From an uncultured virus (IMG/VR IMGVR_UViG_3300017783_005492) (taxonomy: Duplodnaviria > Heunggongvirae > Uroviricota > Caudoviricetes): a DNA stretch of 64,000 nucleotides. Where the stretch lies: IMG/VR virus record IMGVR_UViG_3300017783_005492; one strand, written 5' to 3'. Of the stretch, positions 3,742-36,569 are shown in pieces (the stretch's first letter is position 1; each line of letters opens with the position of its first letter). The position numbers and the translations under genes are program-made. A model generated the notes under the pieces. It ran no database searches and was not told the DNA's origin. It saw nothing but the letters and a program-made list of their open reading frames with translations.

Positions 3742-5256
3742 ATGATCGAATCTCTAGTAACTCTCCCACTGTATATGCAGTGGGGGATTATCGTGACAAT
3801 AGGAGTACTGTATGGGTCTATAATTGGACTCATACCTTCAGCTGGTCCAGCCAAAGCATTAATTATGTTATTTGGTTTGGCTCAGCTGTTTGATACGCCT
3901 GGTGCAGAATATCTTTTTGTTCTGTTTGCTATGGCTGTACTAGTGTCATGCTCAATTGGAGATTCGTTTGCTTCAGTTCTTATTGGCATCCCTGGTGCTG
4001 ATGGAACTGCAGCTACAATGGTAGATGGATTTCCTTTAGCAAAACAAGGGAAAGCTAGCTATGCATTGTCAGCAGCAATCACTACTTCAACGCTAGGAGG
4101 ATTGTTGTTTGGTATTATAGGATTTGCCCTATTTCCAATGTACGAATTAATTAGTTCTTATGTTGGCATTCCAGAAATATTTGGAATGATTATATTATCA
4201 TTTTCACTAATTACTTTAATTACGACTAAGCATACATTGAGATGCTTAGTAGCTTTGGCCCTTGGAATATTCGTAGGACTTGTCGGATATGATATTTATT
4301 CTACCCCAAGGTGGACCGGCGGAATAGAATATCTAGTTGATGGTGTGTCAATTGTTATTGTAACCGCCGGTCTATTTGCTATACCAGAAATGATTTATGT
4401 TCTAACTAAAAAGAATGAATATGAACATATAAACAGTAAAGAACACGCTAAGCAAACATGGCAAGGCATAGTTGATACTGGTAAAAACTGGTACATTGCT
4501 TTGCAAGGTTCATTAATTGGGTTTATAGTTGGAGTCTTACCCGGAACTGGAGGAGGCATTGGAGACTGGTCTGCTTATACTGCAACTACAGCAATATGTA
4601 GAAAAGAAACAATTCCATTTGGTAAAGGTAATATCAAAGGTGTAATAGGAAGTGAAGGCGCAAACAATTCCGGCAAAGCTGGAGCTATACTTCCTGCGTT
4701 TTTATTTGGTATCCCAGGCAATCGCGGCGTTGCTATCATCATGGCATTGTTTTTATATGTAGGATTTGAAATGGGATCAATGCAGGTGATTGAGGATACA
4801 GAATTTACTCATCATTTGTATTGGGGATATATGCTTGGTACAGCTATTTCAGGCGTTGTACTTCTTATATTTGCTAGACAAGTTTCAAAAGTAGTTTACA
4901 TTAAGCCAATTTATTGGGTTCCTGTTATGGCAGCTTTAACTATTTGGTCTGTACTAGCAGCTAGATATTATTCTACAATGTACGAAGATCTGATTATGCT
5001 TACCATCTTTAGTATTTTAGGGTGGTATATGAGAAGATATGAATTTAGTAGACCGGCATTTTTGATTGCGTTTTTCTTAGCAGAAAGATTAGAAGCAGGT
5101 TTATATCAAATGCAAGCGCTATATTTTTGGGAAGGTAATTATATAATAAACCCAATATGGGGAATGCACCCAATCATGACTGCCTGCTTAATTCTCGCCG
5201 TAGGCCTAGTAGGTTATGGAACTATGCGAGATAAATCATTAACAACGTATAGCTAA
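3742..5256 (+). CDS. tctA: tripartite tricarboxylate transporter large permease TctA
   Basis: About 12 TM segments; IGLIP, IGIPG..GTAATMVDGFPLAKQGKA, GVIGSEGANNS, FGIPG, RPAFLIAF signatures. Confidence 0.85.
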   Translation: MIESLVTLPLYMQWGIIVTIGVLYGSIIGLIPSAGPAKALIMLFGLAQLFDTPGAEYLFVLFAMAVLVSCSIGDSFASVLIGIPGADGTAATMVDGFPLAKQGKASYALSAAITTSTLGGLLFGIIGFALFPMYELISSYVGIPEIFGMIILSFSLITLITTKHTLRCLVALALGIFVGLVGYDIYSTPRWTGGIEYLVDGVSIVIVTAGLFAIPEMIYVLTKKNEYEHINSKEHAKQTWQGIVDTGKNWYIALQGSLIGFIVGVLPGTGGGIGDWSAYTATTAICRKETIPFGKGNIKGVIGSEGANNSGKAGAILPAFLFGIPGNRGVAIIMALFLYVGFEMGSMQVIEDTEFTHHLYWGYMLGTAISGVVLLIFARQVSKVVYIKPIYWVPVMAALTIWSVLAARYYSTMYEDLIMLTIFSILGWYMRRYEFSRPAFLIAFFLAERLEAGLYQMQALYFWEGNYIINPIWGMHPIMTACLILAVGLVGYGTMRDKSLTTYS

Positions 5257-8456: not shown

Positions 8457-8513
8457 TTTACTTTTCAGAAGAAATGGTGTATAATAGTACTATAAAATGG
8501 AAAAGAAAGGAAA
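8457..8513 (+). promoter_or_regulatory. early promoter with conserved leader/RBS
   Basis: TTTACT(8457)-17bp-TATAAT(8480), then AGTACTATAAAATGGAAAAGAAAGG. Confidence 0.85.
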
Positions 8514-8809: not shown

Positions 8810-8862
8810 TTTACAATTCAAAAGAAATAGTGTATAATAGATCTATAAAATGGAAAAGGAAG
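8810..8862 (+). promoter_or_regulatory. early promoter with conserved leader/RBS
   Basis: TTTACA(8810)-17bp-TATAAT(8833), then AGATCTATAAAATGGAAAAGGAA. Confidence 0.85.
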
Positions 8863-9055: not shown

Positions 9056-9080
9056 TTTATATTATGGAAAAGGAAATTTA

Positions 9081-9620
9081 ATGGAAATACAAGCAAACAT
9101 TGAGTACAAAATGTACGATGTTCCTCATAACTCAGGTCAACGAGCTATTGCGGATATCATAGAAAACGATGTGGTTAATCAACTTATTGAACAAGGTGGT
9201 GTTGCACCAAAAAGCGTGCGTACTATTGAAGATGTAACGTTCAAAGGTGTATTGGTTGACGTTAAAACCCGCGACATTGGTCGTGAATTTAGTATGCCTA
9301 ATCTTATTTCAGTAGATAGATTATCAAAAAATAGAAATACTGAAATAGCATACCTATTCATTGATTATGTAGTTAATCCTGTTGATGGTGAAACTGCTCA
9401 AATAGTCAATATTGAATATCGACCTATAGAGTCAATTGATTGGCATCATCTTTCTATTCAAAACCTTGGCTTAGGTCAACTTCAATTGGTAAAAACCGAT
9501 AAAGGTATTAATTACTTTGAAGGCACTAAAGATGATTGGTTCTTTGAGTTAAAGTTACAAATGGGTAATTTTTATGAAAGACAGATTAGAAAATTTGAAT
9601 CACTAAGAAAAAAATTGTAA
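9081..9620 (+). CDS. PD-(D/E)xK restriction-endonuclease-like protein
   Basis: ED...VDVKT catalytic-like motif; MPNLISVDRL and LGLGQLQ blocks resemble type II REase-like proteins; RBS GGAAAAGGA. Confidence 0.55.
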   Translation: MEIQANIEYKMYDVPHNSGQRAIADIIENDVVNQLIEQGGVAPKSVRTIEDVTFKGVLVDVKTRDIGREFSMPNLISVDRLSKNRNTEIAYLFIDYVVNPVDGETAQIVNIEYRPIESIDWHHLSIQNLGLGQLQLVKTDKGINYFEGTKDDWFFELKLQMGNFYERQIRKFESLRKKL

Positions 9621-9657: not shown

Positions 9658-9710
9658 TGTACAATTGAAAAGAACTATGGTATAATAGATCTATAAAATG
9701 GAAAAGGAAA
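9658..9710 (+). promoter_or_regulatory. early promoter with conserved leader
   Basis: TGTACA(9658)-17bp-TATAAT(9681), AGATCTATAAAATGGAAAAGGAAA. Confidence 0.85.
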
Positions 9711-9712
9711 AG

Positions 9713-9796
9713 TTTACTGGAGAAAATTTACTGGAGCCGAAAGGTTAGGATTAAGAGTCACTGCAAAGTTTTTTAAGATTAAGAGTCACTGCAAAG
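9713..9796 (+). repeat. two pairs of direct repeats in the 5' leader of the DUF932 gene
   Basis: TTTACTGGAG at 9713 and 9727; GATTAAGAGTCACTGCAAAG at 9749 and 9777. Confidence 0.9.
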
Positions 9797-9830
9797 CTTT
9801 CCAAAACACAGTCTTAAGGAGACATATATT

Positions 9831-10778
9831 ATGGCACATCAAGTAGAAACAATGGCGTATGCCGGTCAGGTTCCGTGGCATGGACTAGGAGTTCCTGTAT
9901 CAAACGATCTTACTCCTCAGCAAATGCAAGAAAAAGCTGGACTAAATTGGAAAGTTCGCGAGCTTGACTCATTTATTGAGATTGATGGTGAAAAAACACT
10001 TACTGGTCTAAAGTCTCTTGTTAGAGAAGATAACAAGAAAATTTTGACTAATGTTGGCGAAAACTGGAATCCAGTTCAAAATGACGATGCATTTAATTTC
10101 TTCTCAGAATATTGCATGTCTGGTGATATGGAAATGCATACTGCTGGATCACTTAAAGGTGGTCAAATGGTATGGGCTTTGGCTAAAGTCAAAGAGTCTT
10201 TTGATTTGTTTGGTGATGATAAAGTTGATTCATATCTTCTTTTTTCTAATCCTCATCAATATGGCAAGTCAATTGACATTCGCTTTACTCCTATCCGTGT
10301 AGTATGTAACAACACACTTACTATGTCACTTGAGTCAAAGGCTGATCGTTCAGTTAAAGTTGGTCACCGCACAGCATTTGATGCTGAAAGTGTAAAACAA
10401 ACTCTAGGCCTTGCACATGAAAAGTTTGCAAAATACAAAGAAATGGCTCAGTTCTTAGCTTCGAAGAAAATGACAAGTGATAACTATATCGCTTTTCTTA
10501 ATGAAGTGTTTCCTCGTACTTCAGGTCAAGTTGACTCAATCAATGTTGACACAATCTCTCGCTCGGCTAAGCAAGCACTTTCTGTCTTAGAAACTCAGCC
10601 AGGTGCAGAGTATGGTGAAGGCACTTGGTGGCAGGCATTTAATTCAGTAACATTTATTACTGATCATGTCCAAGGACGAAATGCTGAAAATAGATTGCAC
10701 TCACAGTGGTTTGGTTTCAACCAACTACGTAAAGTTAAAGCTGCAGAAAAAGCAGTAGAATACGCAATGAGTGCATAA
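9831..10778 (+). CDS. DUF932/DUF945 family phage-plasmid protein
   Basis: MAH..ETMAY...PWHGLG, VQN..AF.FF, TPIRVVCNNTL, GTWWQAFN. Confidence 0.85.
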   Translation: MAHQVETMAYAGQVPWHGLGVPVSNDLTPQQMQEKAGLNWKVRELDSFIEIDGEKTLTGLKSLVREDNKKILTNVGENWNPVQNDDAFNFFSEYCMSGDMEMHTAGSLKGGQMVWALAKVKESFDLFGDDKVDSYLLFSNPHQYGKSIDIRFTPIRVVCNNTLTMSLESKADRSVKVGHRTAFDAESVKQTLGLAHEKFAKYKEMAQFLASKKMTSDNYIAFLNEVFPRTSGQVDSINVDTISRSAKQALSVLETQPGAEYGEGTWWQAFNSVTFITDHVQGRNAENRLHSQWFGFNQLRKVKAAEKAVEYAMSA

Positions 10779-10783
10779 ATTGG

Positions 10784-10835
10784 TTTACAATGAGGTAGAT
10801 CTATGGTATAATAGATCTACCAATTGAAAAAGGAG
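10784..10835 (+). promoter_or_regulatory. early promoter whose -10 lies inside an 11-bp inverted repeat
   Basis: TTTACA(10784)-17bp-TATAAT(10807); GGTAGATCTAT/ATAGATCTACC flank the -10. Confidence 0.8.
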
Positions 10836-10843
10836 TTATAGTA

Positions 10844-11164
10844 ATGGGAATTCAAGCCCCACGTTATCCAACAGATTCTTTTATAGGTACCTTTAGTCGT
10901 GATAGCGACGCTGATATGAAAGATCTAGAAATGGTGAGACATATGGTTTCTCGATTTAATGGTTGGTTGAAACAAAGCAAAAGTGACAAACGATATCGTG
11001 TTGTTATTCGTGGACGTAAACCATATAAAAAAATGAAAGCGGTTCATCCACATTACAGATTCTGTAACTCAAAAGGTGAAGTGTCATATGACTACTTTGG
11101 AAATATTGTCGGCGGCATTAAAAATGCTAGTGTCTTAAAGGCTTTTATATACGAAAGACGATAA
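10844..11164 (+). CDS. hypothetical early protein
   Basis: ORF with AAGGAG RBS directly behind the promoter. Confidence 0.75.
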   Translation: MGIQAPRYPTDSFIGTFSRDSDADMKDLEMVRHMVSRFNGWLKQSKSDKRYRVVIRGRKPYKKMKAVHPHYRFCNSKGEVSYDYFGNIVGGIKNASVLKAFIYERR

Positions 11165-11172
11165 TACAAATA

Positions 11173-11219
11173 TATAAGCAAGCGTTATTTTCCTTTCCTT
11201 TTCCAACGCGAGGCTTATA
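11173..11219 (+). ncRNA. candidate small RNA hairpin with a loop antisense to the early leader/RBS
   Basis: Stems TATAAGC/GCTTATA and GCGTT/AACGC enclose ATTTTCCTTTCCTTTTCC; followed by a terminator. Confidence 0.55.
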
Positions 11220-11225
11220 GGACAT

Positions 11226-11253
11226 AGGGGGGCACATGCTCCCCTTTGTTTTT
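11226..11253 (+). terminator. Rho-independent terminator
   Basis: AGGGGGGC-ACAT-GCTCCCCT followed by TTGTTTTT. Confidence 0.8.
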
Positions 11254-11254
11254 A

Positions 11255-11262
11255 TATAAATA
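11255..11262 (+). promoter_or_regulatory. T4-type late promoter
   Basis: TATAAATA immediately upstream of the late gene cluster. Confidence 0.75.
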
Positions 11263-11289
11263 GAACAAGGATAAAAAAAAGAGAGTGGC

Positions 11290-12261
11290 ATGATAAGCTT
11301 CAAACGTTTTTTAATGGAAAAGGTTATGCAACAATTTAACGTACTTAAGCACACTGATCTTACAAAAGACAGGTCGCGTGGTGAATTGTTTGTTATGAAA
11401 ATAAAAACAGGTGAAGACTTTGCATTAGCAAACGGTAAACAAACAAAGATTGATAAATCTGAATATGACGATGTAGCTGCTGGAATGAACACAAAAGGCT
11501 TTAGTAAAAAGCTTAAAGTTCAAAGCGGTGGATATGTTAACTATCCTAAAGACTTTCTTAAAACAGGAGAGTTTGGTGGTAAAGGTAAAGGATCTGGAGT
11601 AGCGGCAGAAAATGCTGCATTAAAGCTAGCAACAACCGCACTCAATAAAGTTTTAACAAAAGAAGCGCAGCCAACTATTATGTTGAAGGTCGGTAAACGT
11701 ACCGTAGAATGCGCTGGAATAATTAGTACTCCTAACCCAGGAGGTAGAGATCCAAAGTCAGATTTTGCTATTGTAAATCTAAAGGGCGATATGGTTGCTC
11801 ATATATCTCATAAAGCAGGTAGAACAGCAAAAGACTTTCAACAATACGGCGGTGTTACAGATCTTAAAGGAAGTAAAGAAATAGAAAGCTTTATGAAAGA
11901 CGTAATCGCAAAGCATCCTGGAGGCCTAGGCTCAGGAGATACGTATTATAGAAAAATTAAGTCAAACGATCTTATTCAAAAATCTGTTTATGGTATTAAA
12001 GCAGGATCAAAAAGCGTAGATGTAAATAACGTAGATGAATTTCACCAAGGAACAATGCAGTTTAAGAAAAAAGGTGGAGCATATATTATCACTTCAACTC
12101 ATAAAGGAATAGTAGGACAAACTCCTAAAGGACCTTATGAGGCAATTCTTGTTGCTCGATACAATAAGCGCAAGGGTACATATGGTTCATTAATTTTACA
12201 AAATTCTAGGATTGGTATTTTTCCAATGGCTAAAATTACGAGAAATACGAAAGAGATATAA
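11290..12261 (+). CDS. hypothetical virion/internal protein, possible PD-(D/E)xK-like domain
   Basis: Capsid-targeting-like N-terminus MISFKRFLME; PKSDF...ISHK...FQQYGG. Confidence 0.6.
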   Translation: MISFKRFLMEKVMQQFNVLKHTDLTKDRSRGELFVMKIKTGEDFALANGKQTKIDKSEYDDVAAGMNTKGFSKKLKVQSGGYVNYPKDFLKTGEFGGKGKGSGVAAENAALKLATTALNKVLTKEAQPTIMLKVGKRTVECAGIISTPNPGGRDPKSDFAIVNLKGDMVAHISHKAGRTAKDFQQYGGVTDLKGSKEIESFMKDVIAKHPGGLGSGDTYYRKIKSNDLIQKSVYGIKAGSKSVDVNNVDEFHQGTMQFKKKGGAYIITSTHKGIVGQTPKGPYEAILVARYNKRKGTYGSLILQNSRIGIFPMAKITRNTKEI

Positions 12262-13487
12262 TGGACACGTTTTCATCATATATTACAGAAAATAAAAATA
12301 CTCACATGACTCATATTGAGGACAAAGTAATCTATGGTGGTGTAAATGGTACTCGTCAAGCTATTCTTGCATTAAGATCTTTAAGAGATATGCTAGGAGG
12401 AGAACATGCTGGAAAAATCTCTACTAAGTGGGATGGCGCTCCTGCCATTTTTGCTGGTGTTGATCCACGAGATGGCAAATTCTTTGTCGCAAAAAAGGGT
12501 ATCTTCAACGTCAATCCTAAAGTCTATAAGACTGCTGCTGATGTTGATGCTGACACTTCAGGTGATTTGTCTGATAAGCTTAAAATTGCACTAAAGCTTT
12601 TACCTTCTTTAGGAATTAAAGGTGTAATACAAGGAGACTTTTTATATGGTCCAGGGGATGTTAAAACTAAAAAAATTAGCGGAAAATCATATGTCACTTT
12701 CCACCCTAATACGATTGTTTATGCAGTACCGGCTGGTACTCAAATGGCCAAGGAAGTCAAGTCAGCAAAAATTGGAATCGTATGGCACACCACATATAAA
12801 GGCAAAACATTTGAATCTATGAAAGCTTCTTATGGAGTAGATGTTTCAAAGTTAAAAACCAGTAAAGCTGTATGGTCACAGGATGCAATGCTTAGAGATT
12901 TAAGCAAAGCAACTATGTCAAAGTCAGATACTAAAGAAGTCAGTGCATACTTGTCACAGGCAGGAAAACTTTTCAATAAAATTTCAGGATCAACATTAAG
13001 ACAGCTTGAAAAAAATCAAGATCTTGCAAAAAATATTGAAACTCACGGAAATAGCTATGTTCGTAAAGGACAAATTCCACCTGATCCTAGGAAAAGAGTA
13101 GCAGCACTAATAAAATTTATTGAAGATAAGTATAAAAAAGAAGCAGATAAAAGAAAAACCGATAAAGGTAAAGCTGCTCAAAAGGCTGTAGCAGATTCTC
13201 TTCTTGTATTTTTCTCTTCTCAAAACAAAAAAAATTTAGAAATGATGTTTGAATTACAAAGAACCATCGTTCTTGCAAAACTAAAACTTATAAATATACT
13301 ACAAAGGGTCCACAATATTGATACATTTGTAAAGACTCGTAAAGGTTTCAAAGTCACTGGCGCTGAAGGATATGTGGCCATTGACAAACTTGGTGGTGAT
13401 GCGGTTAAGATTGTTGATAGAATGGAATTTTCTACCAACAACTTTTCGCCGGATATATTAAAAGGATGGGAAAAGCCGGGGCAATAG
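12261..13487 (+). CDS. conserved T4-like phage protein (DUF6267-like) with ligase-type nucleotidyltransferase motifs
   Basis: KNTHMTHIED N-terminus; KWDG, QGDF, EGYV, VKIVDR. Confidence 0.65.
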   Translation: MDTFSSYITENKNTHMTHIEDKVIYGGVNGTRQAILALRSLRDMLGGEHAGKISTKWDGAPAIFAGVDPRDGKFFVAKKGIFNVNPKVYKTAADVDADTSGDLSDKLKIALKLLPSLGIKGVIQGDFLYGPGDVKTKKISGKSYVTFHPNTIVYAVPAGTQMAKEVKSAKIGIVWHTTYKGKTFESMKASYGVDVSKLKTSKAVWSQDAMLRDLSKATMSKSDTKEVSAYLSQAGKLFNKISGSTLRQLEKNQDLAKNIETHGNSYVRKGQIPPDPRKRVAALIKFIEDKYKKEADKRKTDKGKAAQKAVADSLLVFFSSQNKKNLEMMFELQRTIVLAKLKLINILQRVHNIDTFVKTRKGFKVTGAEGYVAIDKLGGDAVKIVDRMEFSTNNFSPDILKGWEKPGQ

Positions 13488-13859
13488 ATGTTAACATTCG
13501 AAAGCTATATAGAAGCTATTGAGCTTACTGACGAAGAACTAATTGAAAAAGGCTTGTCTATTCAAGGCCGACGGTCATTAGCTCGTTCTATGAAGAAAAA
13601 TCGTTTTAAGCTAGCAAGATCTCGTAAAATACAATCTCGTAAAAGGGCTGACTCTGGTCGTATTAAGAACCGAGCTCGTAGACAAGCACGCTCAGACCTT
13701 TTTAAGAAACTTTCCGGCGGTAAAAGTAGAAGTTCCGTTTCAGTTGCTCGTAAAAAAGGCTTGGAAAGAAGAATGGGTAACAATACTATCCAGCGACGCA
13801 TAAGCACATCTGCAAGAAAAATGATGGCACCGAAGAGAAGAGCGGATCGCAGGACATGA
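13488..13859 (+). CDS. very basic hypothetical protein (probable internal head protein)
   Basis: MLTFESYIEA N-terminus; Arg/Lys rich. Confidence 0.7.
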   Translation: MLTFESYIEAIELTDEELIEKGLSIQGRRSLARSMKKNRFKLARSRKIQSRKRADSGRIKNRARRQARSDLFKKLSGGKSRSSVSVARKKGLERRMGNNTIQRRISTSARKMMAPKRRADRRT

Positions 13860-14914
13860 TTAATAGCTTTAGCCAATTTTTAGTTGAAGAAGAAAAGACT
13901 CTATATTTTGTATGGGGACGGATGAATCCGCCAACTGCAGGTCATGAGAAGCTTCTGGACTTCTTAAAAGCTAAGGCTGGAAATAATCCATACAGAGTTT
14001 ATCTTACTCAAACAGAAGATAAAGATAAAAACCCTATTCCATTTGCGCAAAAAGTAAAGCTTGCTCGTAAAGGATTTCCATCTCACGCTCGTCAAATCAT
14101 TCTAGATAAAAAGCTTAAGACATTATTTCAAGCAATGACTGCTTTTTACAATGAAGGTTTTCGTCGTGTAGTAATTGTTGCAGGTTCTGATCGTATTAGA
14201 GAGTATGATATTACTCTTAACAAATATAATGGAAAAAAAGGTAAACACGGTTTTTATAATTTTGAAAAAATTAGTGTACTAAACGCAGGTAAAAGAGATC
14301 CAGATTCTAAAGGTGTTGATGGCGTATCTGGTACAAAGCTTCGTGGATTTGCTGAAAAAGGTGACTTTACTAGCTTTGCTCAATATATGCCTAAGAAGCT
14401 TTCTAACTCAGATGCTAAGGCTGTATATAATGCTGTTCGTAAAGGTATTGGCCTTAAAGAGCAAAACGTATATGAAAATCATATACAGCTTGAAACAGTT
14501 TCTGAAACACGTGAAGCATATGTCAAAGGCCAACTTTTTGAAGTTGGTGATACTGTAGTTATAAAGAGTACTGATGAAGTAGCAGAAGTAAAGGTTCTAG
14601 GAACTAATTATGTTATTGTTGAAAGTGCAGGTAAAACAACACGTAAATGGCTAGATGCAATTGAGCTTCTTGAAAAAACCAGCTCACCTCAAGATCCAGA
14701 TATTAAAGACAAAGACGGCACACAGCCTAAAGCTTATTATAGTGGTATAAAAACAAAAGCTACGAAAAAGGCAAGAGATTCTCATTTTAAGAAAGGTGCT
14801 AAAAAAGATGATGATGATCCATCAGCATATAAGCCAGCACCTGGAGATGCGACAGCTAAAACTAAGCCAAGTAAACACACTAAAAGATTCAAAGCAATGT
14901 TCGGAGATGACTAA
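13856..14914 (+). CDS. cytidyltransferase-like (HxGH) nucleotidyltransferase
   Basis: WGRMNPPTAGHEKL, VAGSDR, SGTKLR motifs, typical of T4-like marine phages. Confidence 0.8.
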   Translation: MINSFSQFLVEEEKTLYFVWGRMNPPTAGHEKLLDFLKAKAGNNPYRVYLTQTEDKDKNPIPFAQKVKLARKGFPSHARQIILDKKLKTLFQAMTAFYNEGFRRVVIVAGSDRIREYDITLNKYNGKKGKHGFYNFEKISVLNAGKRDPDSKGVDGVSGTKLRGFAEKGDFTSFAQYMPKKLSNSDAKAVYNAVRKGIGLKEQNVYENHIQLETVSETREAYVKGQLFEVGDTVVIKSTDEVAEVKVLGTNYVIVESAGKTTRKWLDAIELLEKTSSPQDPDIKDKDGTQPKAYYSGIKTKATKKARDSHFKKGAKKDDDDPSAYKPAPGDATAKTKPSKHTKRFKAMFGDD

Positions 14915-24315: not shown

Positions 24316-24368
24316 TTTACTTTTTATAAAAACTATGGTATAATAGATCTATAAAATGGAAAAGGAAC
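24316..24368 (+). promoter_or_regulatory. early promoter with conserved leader
   Basis: TTTACT(24316)-17bp-TATAAT(24339), AGATCTATAAAATGGAAAAGGAA. Confidence 0.85.
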
Positions 24369-24969: not shown

Positions 24970-25022
24970 TTTACTTTTCAATAAAACTGTGGTATAATAT
25001 TACTATAAAATGGAAAAGGAAA
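24970..25022 (+). promoter_or_regulatory. early promoter with conserved leader
   Basis: TTTACT(24970)-17bp-TATAAT(24993), ATAAAATGGAAAAGGAAA. Confidence 0.85.
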
Positions 25023-29799: not shown

Positions 29800-29852
29800 T
29801 GTACAAACCATTAAAACTGTGGTATAATAGTACTATAAAATGGAAAAGGAAA
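29800..29852 (+). promoter_or_regulatory. early promoter with conserved leader
   Basis: TGTACA(29800)-17bp-TATAAT(29823), AGTACTATAAAATGGAAAAGGAAA. Confidence 0.85.
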
Positions 29853-32793: not shown

Positions 32794-33411
32794 ATGCTAG
32801 GTAAGCTATTTGACAAATATAAATGCGATAAAACCGCAAAGCACATGTATGATACGGTGTATGAGCCACTGTTTGAGAAACATAAAGATGATGAAATTAA
32901 CATTCTCGAAATTGGTGTATTCAAAGGAGCCTCAACTATGGCGCTGCTTGAATATTTTCCTAATGCTCAAGTCCACGGCATAGATGTGTTTAAGAGAGTA
33001 GCTATTCCTGATACAGTATGCTATGGACAAGAAAGAGTACACCTTATGAGGGGTGATTCTCAAAACATGGCGATTGGTCCACGTGTACGATCAACATGGG
33101 GAGCCATTAAGTTTGATATTATTATTGATGATGCAATGCATACACCTGCTGCAAATATGAAAACTTTACATGCATGTCTACCTCTTCTTAACGATGGAGG
33201 TACATACTTTATTGAAGATGTATGGCCACTCGAAAGTATGACTACAAAGCAGCTAGCACATCCGTGGTTAAAAAGAAATGCTCATGCTTACAATGCATTG
33301 GATAACGAAATGTTTCTTAAATCATTGGCTAATAGTAATAAAAAGATTACTAGGCACGATTTAAGAGATAAGACAGGTCAACCAGATTCTTATATTATTG
33401 AGTTAAGTTAA
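32794..33411 (+). CDS. class I SAM-dependent methyltransferase (sugar O-methyltransferase-like)
   Basis: DK...H.Y...YE, ILEIGV..GAS, FDIIIDD..H, GG.Y.IED. Confidence 0.8.
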   Translation: MLGKLFDKYKCDKTAKHMYDTVYEPLFEKHKDDEINILEIGVFKGASTMALLEYFPNAQVHGIDVFKRVAIPDTVCYGQERVHLMRGDSQNMAIGPRVRSTWGAIKFDIIIDDAMHTPAANMKTLHACLPLLNDGGTYFIEDVWPLESMTTKQLAHPWLKRNAHAYNALDNEMFLKSLANSNKKITRHDLRDKTGQPDSYIIELS

Positions 33412-34106
33412 TGAAAGCAAAAATTATTACCCTTAAAGGGCATAGTGGTAGTGAGCTAAACGCAGCTACATGTATTAAAAGCAGCAAAAAGTTACACAAT
33501 ACATTTGATATTGAAACCTTTGATGCTATTACACCTGAGCAAGTACCTCATATTATGAACTCAAATATGATCCAATGGACATATCCTCTTGAAGGTGTAA
33601 GAAATGATTTTGGTACAGGGCTAAAGCTTACAGCATATCCTACAGAAGTACCAGAAAAGCGTATTGCATGCTTTTTGTCACATTGGACACTATGGAAAGA
33701 AGTGATTGAAACCAATGAGCCAATGCTGATTCTTGAGCATGATGCTAAATTTGTACGCCATCTTGATCCTCAATATATTATTGATAGTAAGTTTTCCATT
33801 GTAGGAATTAATGATCCAATCGGTGCAACTCGTAAGGCTCGTACATATAAAGATATGATTCAGAGGGAAACCGATAGCATCATTTCAGTACCTCGAATCG
33901 ATGAGTTTAATATTCCTCAAGGATTGGCTGGAAATAGTGCATACATACTTAAACCAAACGGTGCAAAACAGCTAATTGAAACAATGAAAGACACGGGCAT
34001 TTGGCCAAACGATGCATTAATGTGTTATCAACTAATTAAACTTCTAGGTGTAACTACTCAATTTTATACCACAATACAACCAATGGAGTCTACAACAACA
34101 AGATGA
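33411..34106 (+). CDS. glycosyltransferase family 25-like
   Basis: FDAI, ACFLSH..LW, ILEHDA, AY...P.GA..L. Confidence 0.8.
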   Translation: MKAKIITLKGHSGSELNAATCIKSSKKLHNTFDIETFDAITPEQVPHIMNSNMIQWTYPLEGVRNDFGTGLKLTAYPTEVPEKRIACFLSHWTLWKEVIETNEPMLILEHDAKFVRHLDPQYIIDSKFSIVGINDPIGATRKARTYKDMIQRETDSIISVPRIDEFNIPQGLAGNSAYILKPNGAKQLIETMKDTGIWPNDALMCYQLIKLLGVTTQFYTTIQPMESTTTR

Positions 34107-34768
34107 CCTCAGCATATGTAATTTGTATAAAAGATAATGTTCAATCCATGCAGGCTGCTGAAAGATGTAAGCAGTCAGGCAATAAGTATGGATTTCCTAT
34201 TAGTGAATATCATGCTTGGACACCAGCAGATAATCCAATCGAAGTGTTAAATCAACAAAAAGGAGTGTCTACAGTTAACTTGGATGAGGTTTACTCTCGA
34301 ACAGAAAACTGTGCTGCAGCATTCTTAAGCCATTTTAGTCTATGGGAAAAGTGCCTTGAGTCCAATAAGCCTGTTGCAGTATTTGAACACGATGCTGTAC
34401 TTATGGGACCTGTTGATGATAGACTTACTCAAGGATTTGCATATAAGCAAATGATTAACATTGGTAAGCCATCATATGGCCAGTTTAGAACACCTGCTTT
34501 TATTGGCAGTGGACCATTAACATCTAAGAATTACTTTCCAGGTGCTCATGCATATATGATTAAACCAGCAGCAGCTCGTAGTCTTATTAGTTTTGCTAGA
34601 ACAAATGGTGCAAATCCTACTGATGTATTTCTTGATAAGAGAAGATTTCCGTTTTTGGAAGAGTGGTATCCATGGGTAGCCGTGGCTAAAGATTCATTCA
34701 GCACAATTCAGGTTGAAAGAGGCTGTTTGGCTAAACACAATTATAATGAGGATTATAAAATTGTCTGA
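34103..34768 (+). CDS. glycosyltransferase family 25-like (paralogue)
   Basis: FLSH..LW, VFEHDA, GAHAY...P.AA..L. Confidence 0.8.
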   Translation: MTSAYVICIKDNVQSMQAAERCKQSGNKYGFPISEYHAWTPADNPIEVLNQQKGVSTVNLDEVYSRTENCAAAFLSHFSLWEKCLESNKPVAVFEHDAVLMGPVDDRLTQGFAYKQMINIGKPSYGQFRTPAFIGSGPLTSKNYFPGAHAYMIKPAAARSLISFARTNGANPTDVFLDKRRFPFLEEWYPWVAVAKDSFSTIQVERGCLAKHNYNEDYKIV

Positions 34769-36531: not shown

Positions 36532-36569
36532 AAATTGATATGGCACACTTGTTGAGAGCAGATGATTAA
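36387..36569 (+). CDS. small hypothetical protein overlapping the peptidase 3' end
   Basis: Strong RBS AGGAGG before ATG; coiled-coil C-terminus. Confidence 0.55.

What the first reader, a model, noticed from the sequence alone, without database searches (positions are those of the whole stretch)
11165..11253. Terminator-ended hairpin RNA displaying a loop exactly antisense to the shared early-gene leader: candidate global early shut-off sRNA
Seen: the non-coding gap after ORF 10844 folds as TATAAGC(11173-79)/GCTTATA(11213-19) and GCGTT(11182-86)/AACGC(11205-09) around the 18-nt loop ATTTTCCTTTCCTTTTCC, followed by an intrinsic terminator. Bases 11194-11205 (TTTCCTTTTCCA) are the perfect reverse complement of TGGAAAAGGAAA. 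That 12-mer is the leader/RBS at 9065, 9699, 25011, 29841 and 42432, with 11/12 matches at 8851 and 24357 and near matches at 8498 and 37806. On the minus strand the purine copy has no -10 box and no start codon, so it is not simply another leader. A late-promoter-like TACAAATA (11165) lies just upstream, and the element sits at the early/late boundary. Inference: one phage sRNA could pair with the SD region of many early mRNAs and switch them off. That would also explain why early leaders are conserved well beyond the SD core.
Basis: partly seen in the sequence, partly recalled or inferred. Interest (0 to 1): 0.85.

Follow-up and report, generated by a model that had tools for sequence, protein, structure and literature searches.

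The report
Anti-leader hairpin ending a phage early operon
A conserved RNA hairpin at the tail of an early operon in a marine T4-like phage displays a loop that can base-pair with the shared ribosome-binding leader of many early genes, so it may dampen their translation, but no experiment shows this yet.

Summary
Window 11173-11219 (+) folds as described, with an 18-19 nt pyrimidine loop, followed by an intrinsic terminator at 11226-11253. Loop bases 11194-11205 are the exact reverse complement of the 12-mer that follows the early promoters.

The phage is T4-like, and the shared leader belongs to PeSL-type promoter cassettes, a published explanation for its conservation. The hairpin is not a free-standing late sRNA. 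TACAAATA at 11165 is not the late consensus and is not conserved. The exact TATAAATA lies after the terminator, at 11255. The element is the 3' UTR of an early operon (DUF932 gene plus a 106-aa gene).

Four distinct phages carry it at the same place. Their stems differ but stay paired: 12 of 25 pairs show compensatory changes. In the three phages whose leaders are known, each loop keeps an 11-13 nt perfect complement to that phage's own leader variant, and 0 of 300 composition-matched shuffles do as well.

Against this, more distant relatives keep a pyrimidine tract with no leader complementarity. Many phages with this leader lack the hairpin at this locus. No discrete RNA has been shown.

Best reading, confidence 0.4: a 3'-UTR anti-leader RNA that represses early mRNAs by pairing.

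The parts
9658..9686 (+). Early sigma-70-type promoter (PeSL cassette) at the head of the DUF932 operon
   Evidence: 10 of 12 matches, TG-extended -10. Cassette alignment.
9699..9710 (+). Canonical leader 12-mer at the 5' end of the operon mRNA. Here it is about 120 nt upstream of the DUF932 start, which has its own SD.
9831..10778 (+). DUF932-family gene (315 aa), first gene of the operon
   Evidence: Pfam PF06067, E 4.5e-41. phrog_1221.
10784..10812 (+). Second early-type promoter, inserted before the 106-aa gene. Its leader deviates from the consensus and contains GGAG. An 11-bp inverted repeat (10794-10804 / 10811-10821) brackets the -10.
   Evidence: In relatives L043 and L002 this promoter is absent and the two genes overlap at TAATG.
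10844..11164 (+). 106-aa conserved hypothetical gene, whose 3' UTR holds the element
   Evidence: 74 homologous clusters, none named. No Pfam or PHROG hit. AlphaFold pLDDT 93.9 with no PDB fold match.
11173..11219 (+). Hairpin: outer stem 11173-79 / 11213-19, inner stem 11182-86 / 11205-09
   Evidence: Covariation: helix 1 has 5 of 7 pairs and helix 2 has 3 of 5 pairs with changes on both sides.
11187..11205 (+). Unpaired pyrimidine-rich loop. 11194-11205 is the exact anti-leader 12-mer.
11226..11253 (+). Intrinsic terminator (G+C-rich stem, T-run) ending the early operon
   Evidence: In one search, helix 3 is 100% paired and includes G.U pairs.
11255..11262 (+). T4-type late promoter octamer TATAAATA for the downstream gene. 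It is conserved directly after the terminator in all four phages.
   Evidence: A gp33-like late coactivator is in the window (PF16805).
11290..12261 (+). Downstream 323-aa gene (phrog_13937, function unknown), served by the late promoter
8851..8862 (+). Early leader copy (1 mismatch), proposed target
9065..9076 (+). Early leader copy (exact), proposed target. It sits 4 nt before the start of gene 9081.
24357..24368 (+). Early leader copy (1 mismatch), proposed target
25011..25022 (+). Early leader copy (exact), proposed target
29841..29852 (+). Early leader copy (exact). Complementarity to the loop extends to 17 of 18 nt.
42432..42443 (+). Early leader copy (exact), proposed target
8498..8513 (+). 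Early leader variant (indel), proposed target
37806..37823 (+). Early leader variant (indel), proposed target

Best explanation
The element is the 3' untranslated end of an early operon (DUF932 gene, 106-aa gene) of a marine T4-like phage. It consists of a stem-loop that holds a leader-complementary sequence unpaired, followed directly by the operon's intrinsic terminator.

Proposed mechanism:
1. The 3' end, either as part of the mRNA or as a nuclease-resistant 3' fragment left after mRNA decay, pairs through its loop with the purine-rich leader carried by the PeSL-driven early mRNAs. That leader includes the Shine-Dalgarno sequence and ends 3-8 nt before the start codon.
2. The 11-13 bp duplex would block 30S binding and might create a double-strand nuclease site. 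Early-protein synthesis would fall as the 3' fragment accumulates.

Shown: the structure, its conservation with compensatory changes, its position, and the complementarity with its partial co-variation with leader type.
Inferred: that pairing happens in the cell, that it acts in trans, that a stable fragment forms, and that the outcome is repression.
For: Fold and terminator..

Same site in four phages. A covariance-model search of 100 sources (734,067 bases) and then of 77 further viral records found full-length matches only in the window, L002, L042/L043 (one phage, G002) and G043. In each, the element lies between the stop of the 106-aa gene and a TATAAATA late promoter.

Structure counts on the four sequences. 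97.8% of cells are paired. 12 of 25 pairs change on both sides. 0 of 500 shuffles reach any of the five measures. Slid controls pair only 43-66%. G.U pairs fit only the + strand.

Longest perfect complement between each loop and its own phage's leaders.
- Window: 12 nt in 5 of 9 leaders.
- G043: 13 nt in 3 of 4 leaders.
- G002: 11-13 nt in 5 of 8 leaders, but only 6-9 nt on the window's or G043's leaders.
The G002 loop therefore fits the G002-specific leader variant. The G043 loop is not pyrimidine-rich outside its anti-leader core.

Mean duplex energy, loop against own leaders, compared with composition-matched loop shuffles.
- Window: -16.75 against -8.75 (sd 1.94), 0 of 300 shuffles as good.
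- G002: -17.14 against -9.83 (sd 1.99), 0 of 300.
- G043: -16.17 against -6.78 (sd 1.92), 0 of 300.

Other points.
- Co-folding still gains -5 to -12 kcal/mol after paying to open the hairpin. The gain is only -2.9 for the deviant leader of the 106-aa gene itself.
- In G002 the operon's own leader has only a 7-nt complement, while leaders of other operons have 11-13. This favours action in trans.
- The closest protein relative without the hairpin (L214, 81% identity) also has a different leader.
Against: - The RNA is made from early promoters at the same time as its targets. A switch needs an unproven accumulation or processing step.
- Many phages that carry this leader and the 106-aa gene have no hairpin there; the gene runs straight into the next one. 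Among 50 records searched for the leader 11-mer, 47 hold it, and only G043 has a copy on the opposite strand. Most of these records are 5-35% fragments.
- More distant relatives (L018 type, L021 type) keep a pyrimidine tract at the same place, but unpaired and outside a hairpin. It shows no complementarity to their few known leaders: 192 of 300 and 120 of 300 shuffles do as well, with 1 and 4 leaders respectively.
- Purine-rich coding sites give similar duplex energies. Only 5 of the top 10 sites in the window and 4 of the top 10 in G002 are leaders.
- The four phages are related, so they are not independent trials.
- An 18-nt loop cannot form 12 bp without strain or stem opening.
- The leader at 9699 is not used as an SD.
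Confidence: 0.4

Rival explanations
1. A purely structural 3'-end module. A second hairpin ahead of the terminator protects the operon mRNA from 3' exonucleases or assists termination. The loop's likeness to the anti-leader is a leftover, for example a captured fragment of a cassette leader, with no pairing role.
For: The element is always next to an intrinsic terminator at an operon end. Distant relatives have a tract with no complementarity. Many leader-bearing phages do without it. Contigs from RNA libraries of two studies stop at 11208 and 11214, while one spans the site. This is compatible with a structured 3' end but equally with assembly breaks at an inverted repeat.
Against: The stems have turned over almost completely, with 8 of the 12 hairpin pairs changed on both sides. 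Yet 11-13 nt of loop stay perfectly complementary to the local leader variant in three phages. A neutral leftover should have decayed. Similarity to the cassette does not extend into the promoter part.
Confidence: 0.25
2. Pairing in cis only. The 3' loop pairs with the canonical leader at the 5' end of its own operon mRNA, closing the molecule. This would adjust its stability or the translation of its first cistron, with no effect on other early genes.
For: In the window and in G043 the operon starts with a canonical leader that has a 12-13 nt complement. At 9699 that leader is not used as an SD, so it is free for such a role. Intramolecular pairing is kinetically favoured.
Against: In G002 the operon's own leader has only a 7-nt complement, while leaders of other operons have 11-13. 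In the window, transcripts from the internal promoter at 10784 carry a poorly matching leader (-2.9 kcal/mol).
Confidence: 0.12
3. A protein-binding site. An exposed pyrimidine-rich, CC-repeat tract next to a terminator is bound by a host or phage RNA-binding protein. Candidates are ribosomal protein S1, Hfq, Rho, or the basic 106-aa protein itself as an autoregulator.
For: A pyrimidine tract follows the homologous gene in five lineages, including those with no leader complementarity. The link is to this gene rather than to the leader. The 106-aa protein is basic, conserved and of unknown fold.
Against: The G043 loop is pyrimidine-rich only in its anti-leader core. The G002 loop type tracks the G002 leader type, which a generic composition-reading protein would not require. 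No RNA-binding domain was detected in the 106-aa protein.
Confidence: 0.13
4. One reading: an independent small RNA transcribed late from TACAAATA at 11165, ending at the terminator, which switches early genes off at the early-to-late transition.
For: TACAAATA matches the T4-type late octamer at 7 of 8 positions and sits 8 nt before the stem. The phage has T4-type late machinery (PF16805 coactivator).
Against: Exact TATAAATA octamers precede the structural genes and the downstream gene here, whereas this site has a C at the third position. In L002, G002 and G043 the corresponding bases are coding sequence, with no such octamer, and the stem starts inside the gene. No sigma-70-like promoter was found on + inside the gene.
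Confidence: 0.05

Closest known systems
3'-UTR-derived base-pairing sRNAs of bacteria that share the mRNA's terminator (CpxQ, SroC, DapZ type; recalled, not from a call)
   Same: It lies at the 3' end of a protein-coding transcript. It ends in that transcript's intrinsic terminator with a U tail. It has a short conserved unpaired seed complementary to ribosome-binding regions of other mRNAs.
   Different: It is encoded by a lytic T4-like phage. The proposed targets are the phage's own early mRNAs, through one shared cassette leader. No processed species, Hfq dependence or regulation has been shown.
c4 antisense RNA of phages P1/P7 (recalled; Rfam search gave no match)
   Same: A phage RNA whose loops pair with ribosome-binding regions and block translation. 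It is made from the same transcription unit as a target.
   Different: No sequence or structure match to any Rfam family. c4 has one operon as target and sits upstream of it. Here the element sits at the 3' end, and the leader recurs at 9 or more genes in 64 kb.
RegB endoribonuclease of T4 (review PMC3014915, passages read)
   Same: Same proposed outcome: functional inactivation of many early mRNAs through their Shine-Dalgarno region shortly after infection.
   Different: RegB is a protein that cuts GGAG/U. Here the agent would be an RNA acting by pairing. The canonical leader lacks GGAG. No RegB or RegA family hit was found among the window's ORFs scanned, though the window is only part of the genome.
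PeSL promoter-terminator cassettes of T4-like phages (PMC4122927, passages read; PMC2839356, search listing only)
   Same: The target leaders belong to cassettes with the published anatomy: a stem-loop, an AT-rich stretch, a sigma-70-like promoter (here TTTACA-17-TATAAT), the SD and the start codon. They are repeated through plastic regions.
   Different: PeSLs are described as recombination and expression modules. In the passages read, no complementary RNA partner is described. The hairpin itself is not an inverted PeSL.
Antisense transcripts in temporal control of Pseudomonas phages PAK_P3/PAK_P4 (PMC5563952, passages read)
   Same: RNA-level temporal control of phage gene classes has been proposed.
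   Different: Those are cis-encoded antisense RNAs, mostly within structural genes and made early. This would be a trans-acting short seed against early leaders.

Membership tests
Intrinsic (Rho-independent) terminator | G+C-rich stem-loop directly followed by a U-run on the transcribed strand | tested here: met
   11226-11253. The helix is 100% paired in four phages, with G.U pairs.
3'-UTR-derived, terminator-sharing base-pairing sRNA | Lies downstream of a stop codon and shares the mRNA's terminator | tested here: met
   Stop at 11162-11164, hairpin at 11173-11219, terminator to 11253. Same layout in L002, L043 and G043.
3'-UTR-derived, terminator-sharing base-pairing sRNA | Conserved unpaired seed complementary to target translation-initiation regions, with complementarity kept across relatives | tested here: met
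   11-13 nt perfect complements in three phages, and 0 of 300 shuffles as good in each. Not kept in the distant L018 and L021 types.
3'-UTR-derived, terminator-sharing base-pairing sRNA | A discrete stable RNA species accumulates | tested here: inconclusive
   Only contigs from RNA libraries were available. They stop at 11178, 11208 and 11214 in three runs and span the site in one. Contigs cannot show ends or levels.
3'-UTR-derived, terminator-sharing base-pairing sRNA | Pairing-dependent regulation of targets; chaperone (Hfq or ProQ) dependence | not testable with these tools
   The host is unknown and there are no experimental data.
   11165-11172 reads TACAAATA. It is absent in L002, G002 and G043, where the region is coding. 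Exact octamers lie elsewhere.
PeSL cassette (for the leaders) | Stem-loop, AT-rich stretch, sigma-70-like promoter, SD and start codon, repeated in the genome | tested here: met
   Cassette alignment. Definition from PMC4122927 passages. The leader 19-mer occurs in 99 stretches of viral contigs.
PeSL cassette (for the hairpin, as an inverted copy) | Similarity extending through the promoter and stem-loop parts | tested here: not met
   Local alignments to six reverse-complemented cassettes cover only 12-18 nt of the leader.
Any Rfam family (including phage antisense RNAs) | Covariance-model match at or near the gathering score | tested here: not met
   Only two tRNAs reach gathering score in the window. 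Best hit in 11050-11350 is 21.5 bits against a gathering score of 47.5, with E 0.79.

The most novel reading that the evidence does not exclude
A group of marine T4-like phages carries, in the 3' UTR of one early operon, an RNA loop that co-evolves with the leader of their mobile early-promoter cassettes. It acts in trans as a single brake on all cassette-driven early genes. This would be an RNA counterpart of T4's RegB. It would give the cassettes' uniform leader a regulatory purpose besides recombination.
Probability: 0.28. Interest if true: 0.8.

Novelty: new variant of a known kind. Interest (0 to 1): 0.6.

Why it matters
How T4-like phages turn off early-gene expression is only partly understood. 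The T4 review read here calls the shut-down of early promoters 'not completely understood' (PMC3014915). PeSL cassettes are so far seen as shuffling modules.

If the loop really pairs with the cassette leader, one short RNA would control a whole regulon defined by a mobile promoter cassette. Any gene acquired with a cassette would come under that control automatically. This would also be an example of a 3'-UTR regulatory RNA in a virulent phage.

The idea is directly testable with a leader-reporter and compensatory mutations in a laboratory strain. If it fails, the element remains a well-supported conserved 3'-end structure of unknown role.

Tried and rejected
Relatives and identity
- Megablast of 10700-12300 and tblastn of the 106-aa protein against GenBank phages found no match. 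The 323-aa protein has only distant hits.
- The window's own assembly is not held. The nearest record, G001, lacks the locus.

Pattern scans of viral contigs
- The terminator-tail-plus-late-promoter 17-mer gave 120 or more loci, of which only L132 and L157 (the G002 phage) carry the element.
- The anti-leader-plus-GAGG pattern gave 117 or more loci. None of the 80 fetched matched model R2.

Further homolog searches
- An alignment of four homologs found 16 loci and no new hairpin.
- The metagenome scan found 31 loci, with the hairpin only in the window's own contig copy (L213) and the G002 copy (L220).

Ideas rejected
- Inverted-cassette origin.
- Sequestering the downstream gene's RBS in read-through transcripts. 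Judged by eye, with only weak complementarity; not computed.

Analyses that gave nothing usable
- The automatic choice of the pyrimidine tract in G003-G005 picked coding stretches, so those rows are not used. The L021 tract coordinates include part of the terminator stem.
- RNA-library contigs give no usable ends or levels.
- Function of the 106-aa protein: Pfam, PHROGs, ESM Atlas, Foldseek PDB (best E 2.5) and VIA-align wide (best Z 3.7) all gave nothing.
- No earlier notes exist for this genome.
- Literature searches listed no T4-like anti-leader RNA. Only the listings and the passages named in this report were read.

Full report
OBSERVATION

The + strand folds into a two-step hairpin, with stems 11173-79/11213-19 and 11182-86/11205-09 around the loop 11187-11205, followed by a terminator hairpin and a T-run. 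MFE is -31.2 kcal/mol and z is -4.6, with 0 of 200 shuffles as good. The terminator scan finds 11226-11245 plus its tail. The minus strand folds less well (-25.3, z -2.6) and has no T-run.

The 12-mer TGGAAAAGGAAA, at up to one mismatch, occurs 9 times against 1.0 expected. Five exact copies are on +. The only exact copy on - is 11194-11205. One-mismatch copies lie at 8851, 24357 and 35378, and the last of these is not a leader. The 17-nt pyrimidine run in the loop is the longest on the + strand of the window.

CONTEXT

The window is from a T4-like myovirus known only from marine metagenomes.
- It carries baseplate and tail genes, a gp32-type SSB and ribonucleotide reductase.
- It carries a gp33-like late coactivator.
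- Exact TATAAATA octamers sit in front of structural genes.
- No close relative is in GenBank phages.

The 12-mer is the 3' part of a conserved cassette of about 80 nt. The cassette holds a small A/T-rich stem-loop, TTTACA-17-(TG)TATAAT, a palindromic 10-mer, the leader, and then ATG 3-8 nt later. This is the anatomy published for PeSL cassettes of T4-like phages, which include the Shine-Dalgarno sequence and start codon (PMC4122927, passages read). So the leader's conservation beyond the SD already has an explanation. The 19-mer spanning the leader occurs in 99 stretches of viral contigs.

WHAT THE ELEMENT BELONGS TO

Upstream lie a DUF932 gene (9831-10778) and a 106-aa conserved hypothetical gene (10844-11164). 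The unit is driven by a cassette promoter at 9658 and a second early-type promoter at 10784. In relatives L043 (phage G002) and L002 the two genes overlap at TAATG and there is no internal promoter. The hairpin and terminator therefore close an early operon. Directly after the T-run comes TATAAATA (11255-62), which serves the next gene.

It also has no counterpart in relatives, where the 5' arm of the stem lies in the last codons of the 106-aa gene. A free-standing late sRNA is therefore not supported.

RELATIVES

A covariance model built from the window (R1) was searched over 100 sources, 734,067 bases in all. At E below 0.001 it found the element only in the window, L002, and L042/L043/L206, which are one phage. 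A rebuilt model (R2) was run over 50 records that carry the cassette leader. It found one more full-length copy, in G043 (44.6 bits). The seven other hits are terminators only. Another 27 records gave nothing.

All four copies sit between the 106-aa gene and a TATAAATA promoter. On their alignment:
- 97.8% of cells pair.
- 12 of 25 pairs have changes on both sides: 5 of 7 in the outer hairpin stem, 3 of 5 in the inner stem and 4 of 13 in the terminator stem.
- 0 of 500 shuffles reach the observed values.
- Slid controls pair at 43-66%.
The alignment was fitted to the model and has only four rows, so these counts lean towards the structure. Even so, the stems of the window, of G043 and of L002/G002 are plainly different sequences that all pair. 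G.U pairs place the function on the + strand RNA.

LOOP AGAINST LEADER

The leaders of G002 and G043 were read from their contigs.
- G043 uses the window-type leader. Its loop has a 13-nt perfect complement in 3 of 4 leaders, and the rest of that loop is not pyrimidine-rich.
- G002 mostly uses a variant leader with an extra GGAA unit. Its loop, and the similar L002 loop, is a (UUCC)n type with 11-13 nt perfect complements in 5 of 8 G002 leaders, but only 6-9 nt on window or G043 leaders.
- The window loop has 12 nt in 5 of 9 of its own leaders, and it would also fit G002's leaders (11-12 nt).

Mean duplex energies against each phage's own leaders, compared with composition-matched shuffles:

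| Phage | Observed | Shuffles, mean (sd) | Shuffles as good |
|---|---|---|---|
| Window | -16.75 | -8.75 (1.94) | 0 of 300 |
| G002 | -17.14 | -9.83 (1.99) | 0 of 300 |
| G043 | -16.17 | -6.78 (1.92) | 0 of 300 |

Co-folding gains -5 to -12 kcal/mol even after opening the hairpin. The gain is only -2.9 for the deviant leader of the 106-aa gene itself. In G002 the operon's own leader is a poor partner (7 nt), which points to action in trans. The similarity to reverse-complemented cassettes ends at 12-18 nt, so the loop is not an inverted cassette.

RESULTS AGAINST THE PAIRING MODEL

- Deeper relatives with the same gene order (L018 type and L021 type, where the 323-aa homolog is about 42% identical) keep a pyrimidine tract after the homologous gene. 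There it is unpaired, lying between a small hairpin and the terminator. It is no better matched to their few known early leaders than shuffles are: 192 of 300 with one leader and 120 of 300 with four.
- In most homolog loci the 106-aa gene runs straight into the next gene, with no such element. This includes several phages that carry the canonical leader.
- Of 50 records searched for the leader 11-mer, 47 hold it, and only G043 has a copy on the opposite strand. These records are 5-35% fragments.
- Purine-rich coding sites score as well as leaders in a duplex scan. Only 5 of the top 10 sites in the window and 4 of the top 10 in G002 are leaders.
- The element is transcribed early, together with its supposed targets.

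EXPRESSION

Six RNA-library runs hold the stretch, and four were laid on it. They are contigs only.
- Contigs from three studies stop at 11178, 11208 and 11214.
- One contig from a variant strain runs from 9746 to 11639. It has 37 differences, of which one (11212) falls in the hairpin, in an unpaired bulge.
This shows presence in RNA libraries. It shows neither ends nor levels, and DNA carry-over is possible.

COMPARISON WITH KNOWN SYSTEMS

No Rfam family matches. In design the element resembles bacterial 3'-UTR-derived sRNAs and the P1 c4 RNA (both recalled, not from a call). In proposed effect it resembles T4 RegB, which inactivates early mRNAs at GGAG in their SD (PMC3014915, passages read). 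No RegB or RegA family was found among the window's ORFs scanned, but the window is only part of the genome. The phage antisense RNAs described for PAK_P3/PAK_P4 are cis-encoded (PMC5563952, passages read). Three literature searches listed no anti-leader RNA in T4-like phages.

VERDICT

The structure is real and conserved. Its loop's complementarity to the cassette leader is specific and partly co-varies with the leader type. Its identity as a late sRNA is not supported.

- Most likely (0.4): a 3'-UTR anti-leader that represses cassette-driven early mRNAs by pairing.
- Structural-only 3'-end module: 0.25.
- Protein-binding site: 0.13.
- Cis-only pairing: 0.12.

I class it as a new variant of a known kind, with interest 0.6.

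Noticed in passing
window 9711-9830: The long 5' UTR of the DUF932 operon holds two sets of tandem direct repeats: a unit of about 14 nt twice, and a unit of about 30 nt twice. A variant strain in RNA run X16 carries one extra 14-nt unit after 9712. The stretch does not fold better than shuffles (z +1.4).
   Followed up: partly
window, directly after each -10 box (e.g. 9687-9696, 8486-8495, 29829-29838): The 10 bases after the -10 of the early cassettes form a perfect DNA palindrome in 7 of 8 cassettes. It occurs in two versions that differ by a self-complementary central swap (AGATCT or AGTACT). This looks like an operator for a dimeric protein at the transcription start, and so a possible transcriptional route to early shut-off.
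   Followed up: no
window 10794-10821: The promoter in front of the 106-aa gene has 11-bp inverted repeats bracketing its -10 box. Its leader contains GGAG instead of the canonical 12-mer. It is the leader least able to pair with the loop (-2.9 kcal/mol).
   Followed up: partly
window 9063-9083 and other leaders: The canonical leader contains an AUG (the base before the 12-mer plus its first two bases) only about 5-6 nt from the predicted RNA start. At 9063 it opens a 5-codon mini-ORF whose TAA overlaps the ATG of gene 9081.
   Followed up: no
window 10844-11164: The 106-aa protein has 74 homologous clusters and no family name. Its predicted alpha/beta fold is confident (pLDDT 93.9), yet the best PDB matches are only Foldseek E 2.5 and VIA-align Z 3.7. 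It has a basic RGRKP..KKM motif and a conserved YIYRR C-terminus.
   Followed up: partly
window 11210-11213; L002 1340-1343; L043 3323-3326; L343 about 1535: A GAGG motif is kept between the hairpin loop and the terminator in all four elements. In the window it lies in the bulge between the two stems. Its role is unknown.
   Followed up: no
L018 1790-1870, L024 2885-2960: In the distant relatives a tRNA gene follows the equivalent terminator within a few bases, ahead of the late promoter of the 323-aa gene.
   Followed up: no
window 3742-5256, 36562-37749, 33411-34768, 43619-43873: Unusual cargo for a phage: a TctA-family tricarboxylate transporter subunit (E 2.6e-83), a class I/II aminotransferase, two family-25 glycosyltransferases and a WYL_2 Sm-like protein.
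   Followed up: no
window 12261-14914: DUF6267 (phrog_455) and a cytidyltransferase-like gene follow the 323-aa gene. PHROG profiles join the two as one longer protein in other phages.
   Followed up: no
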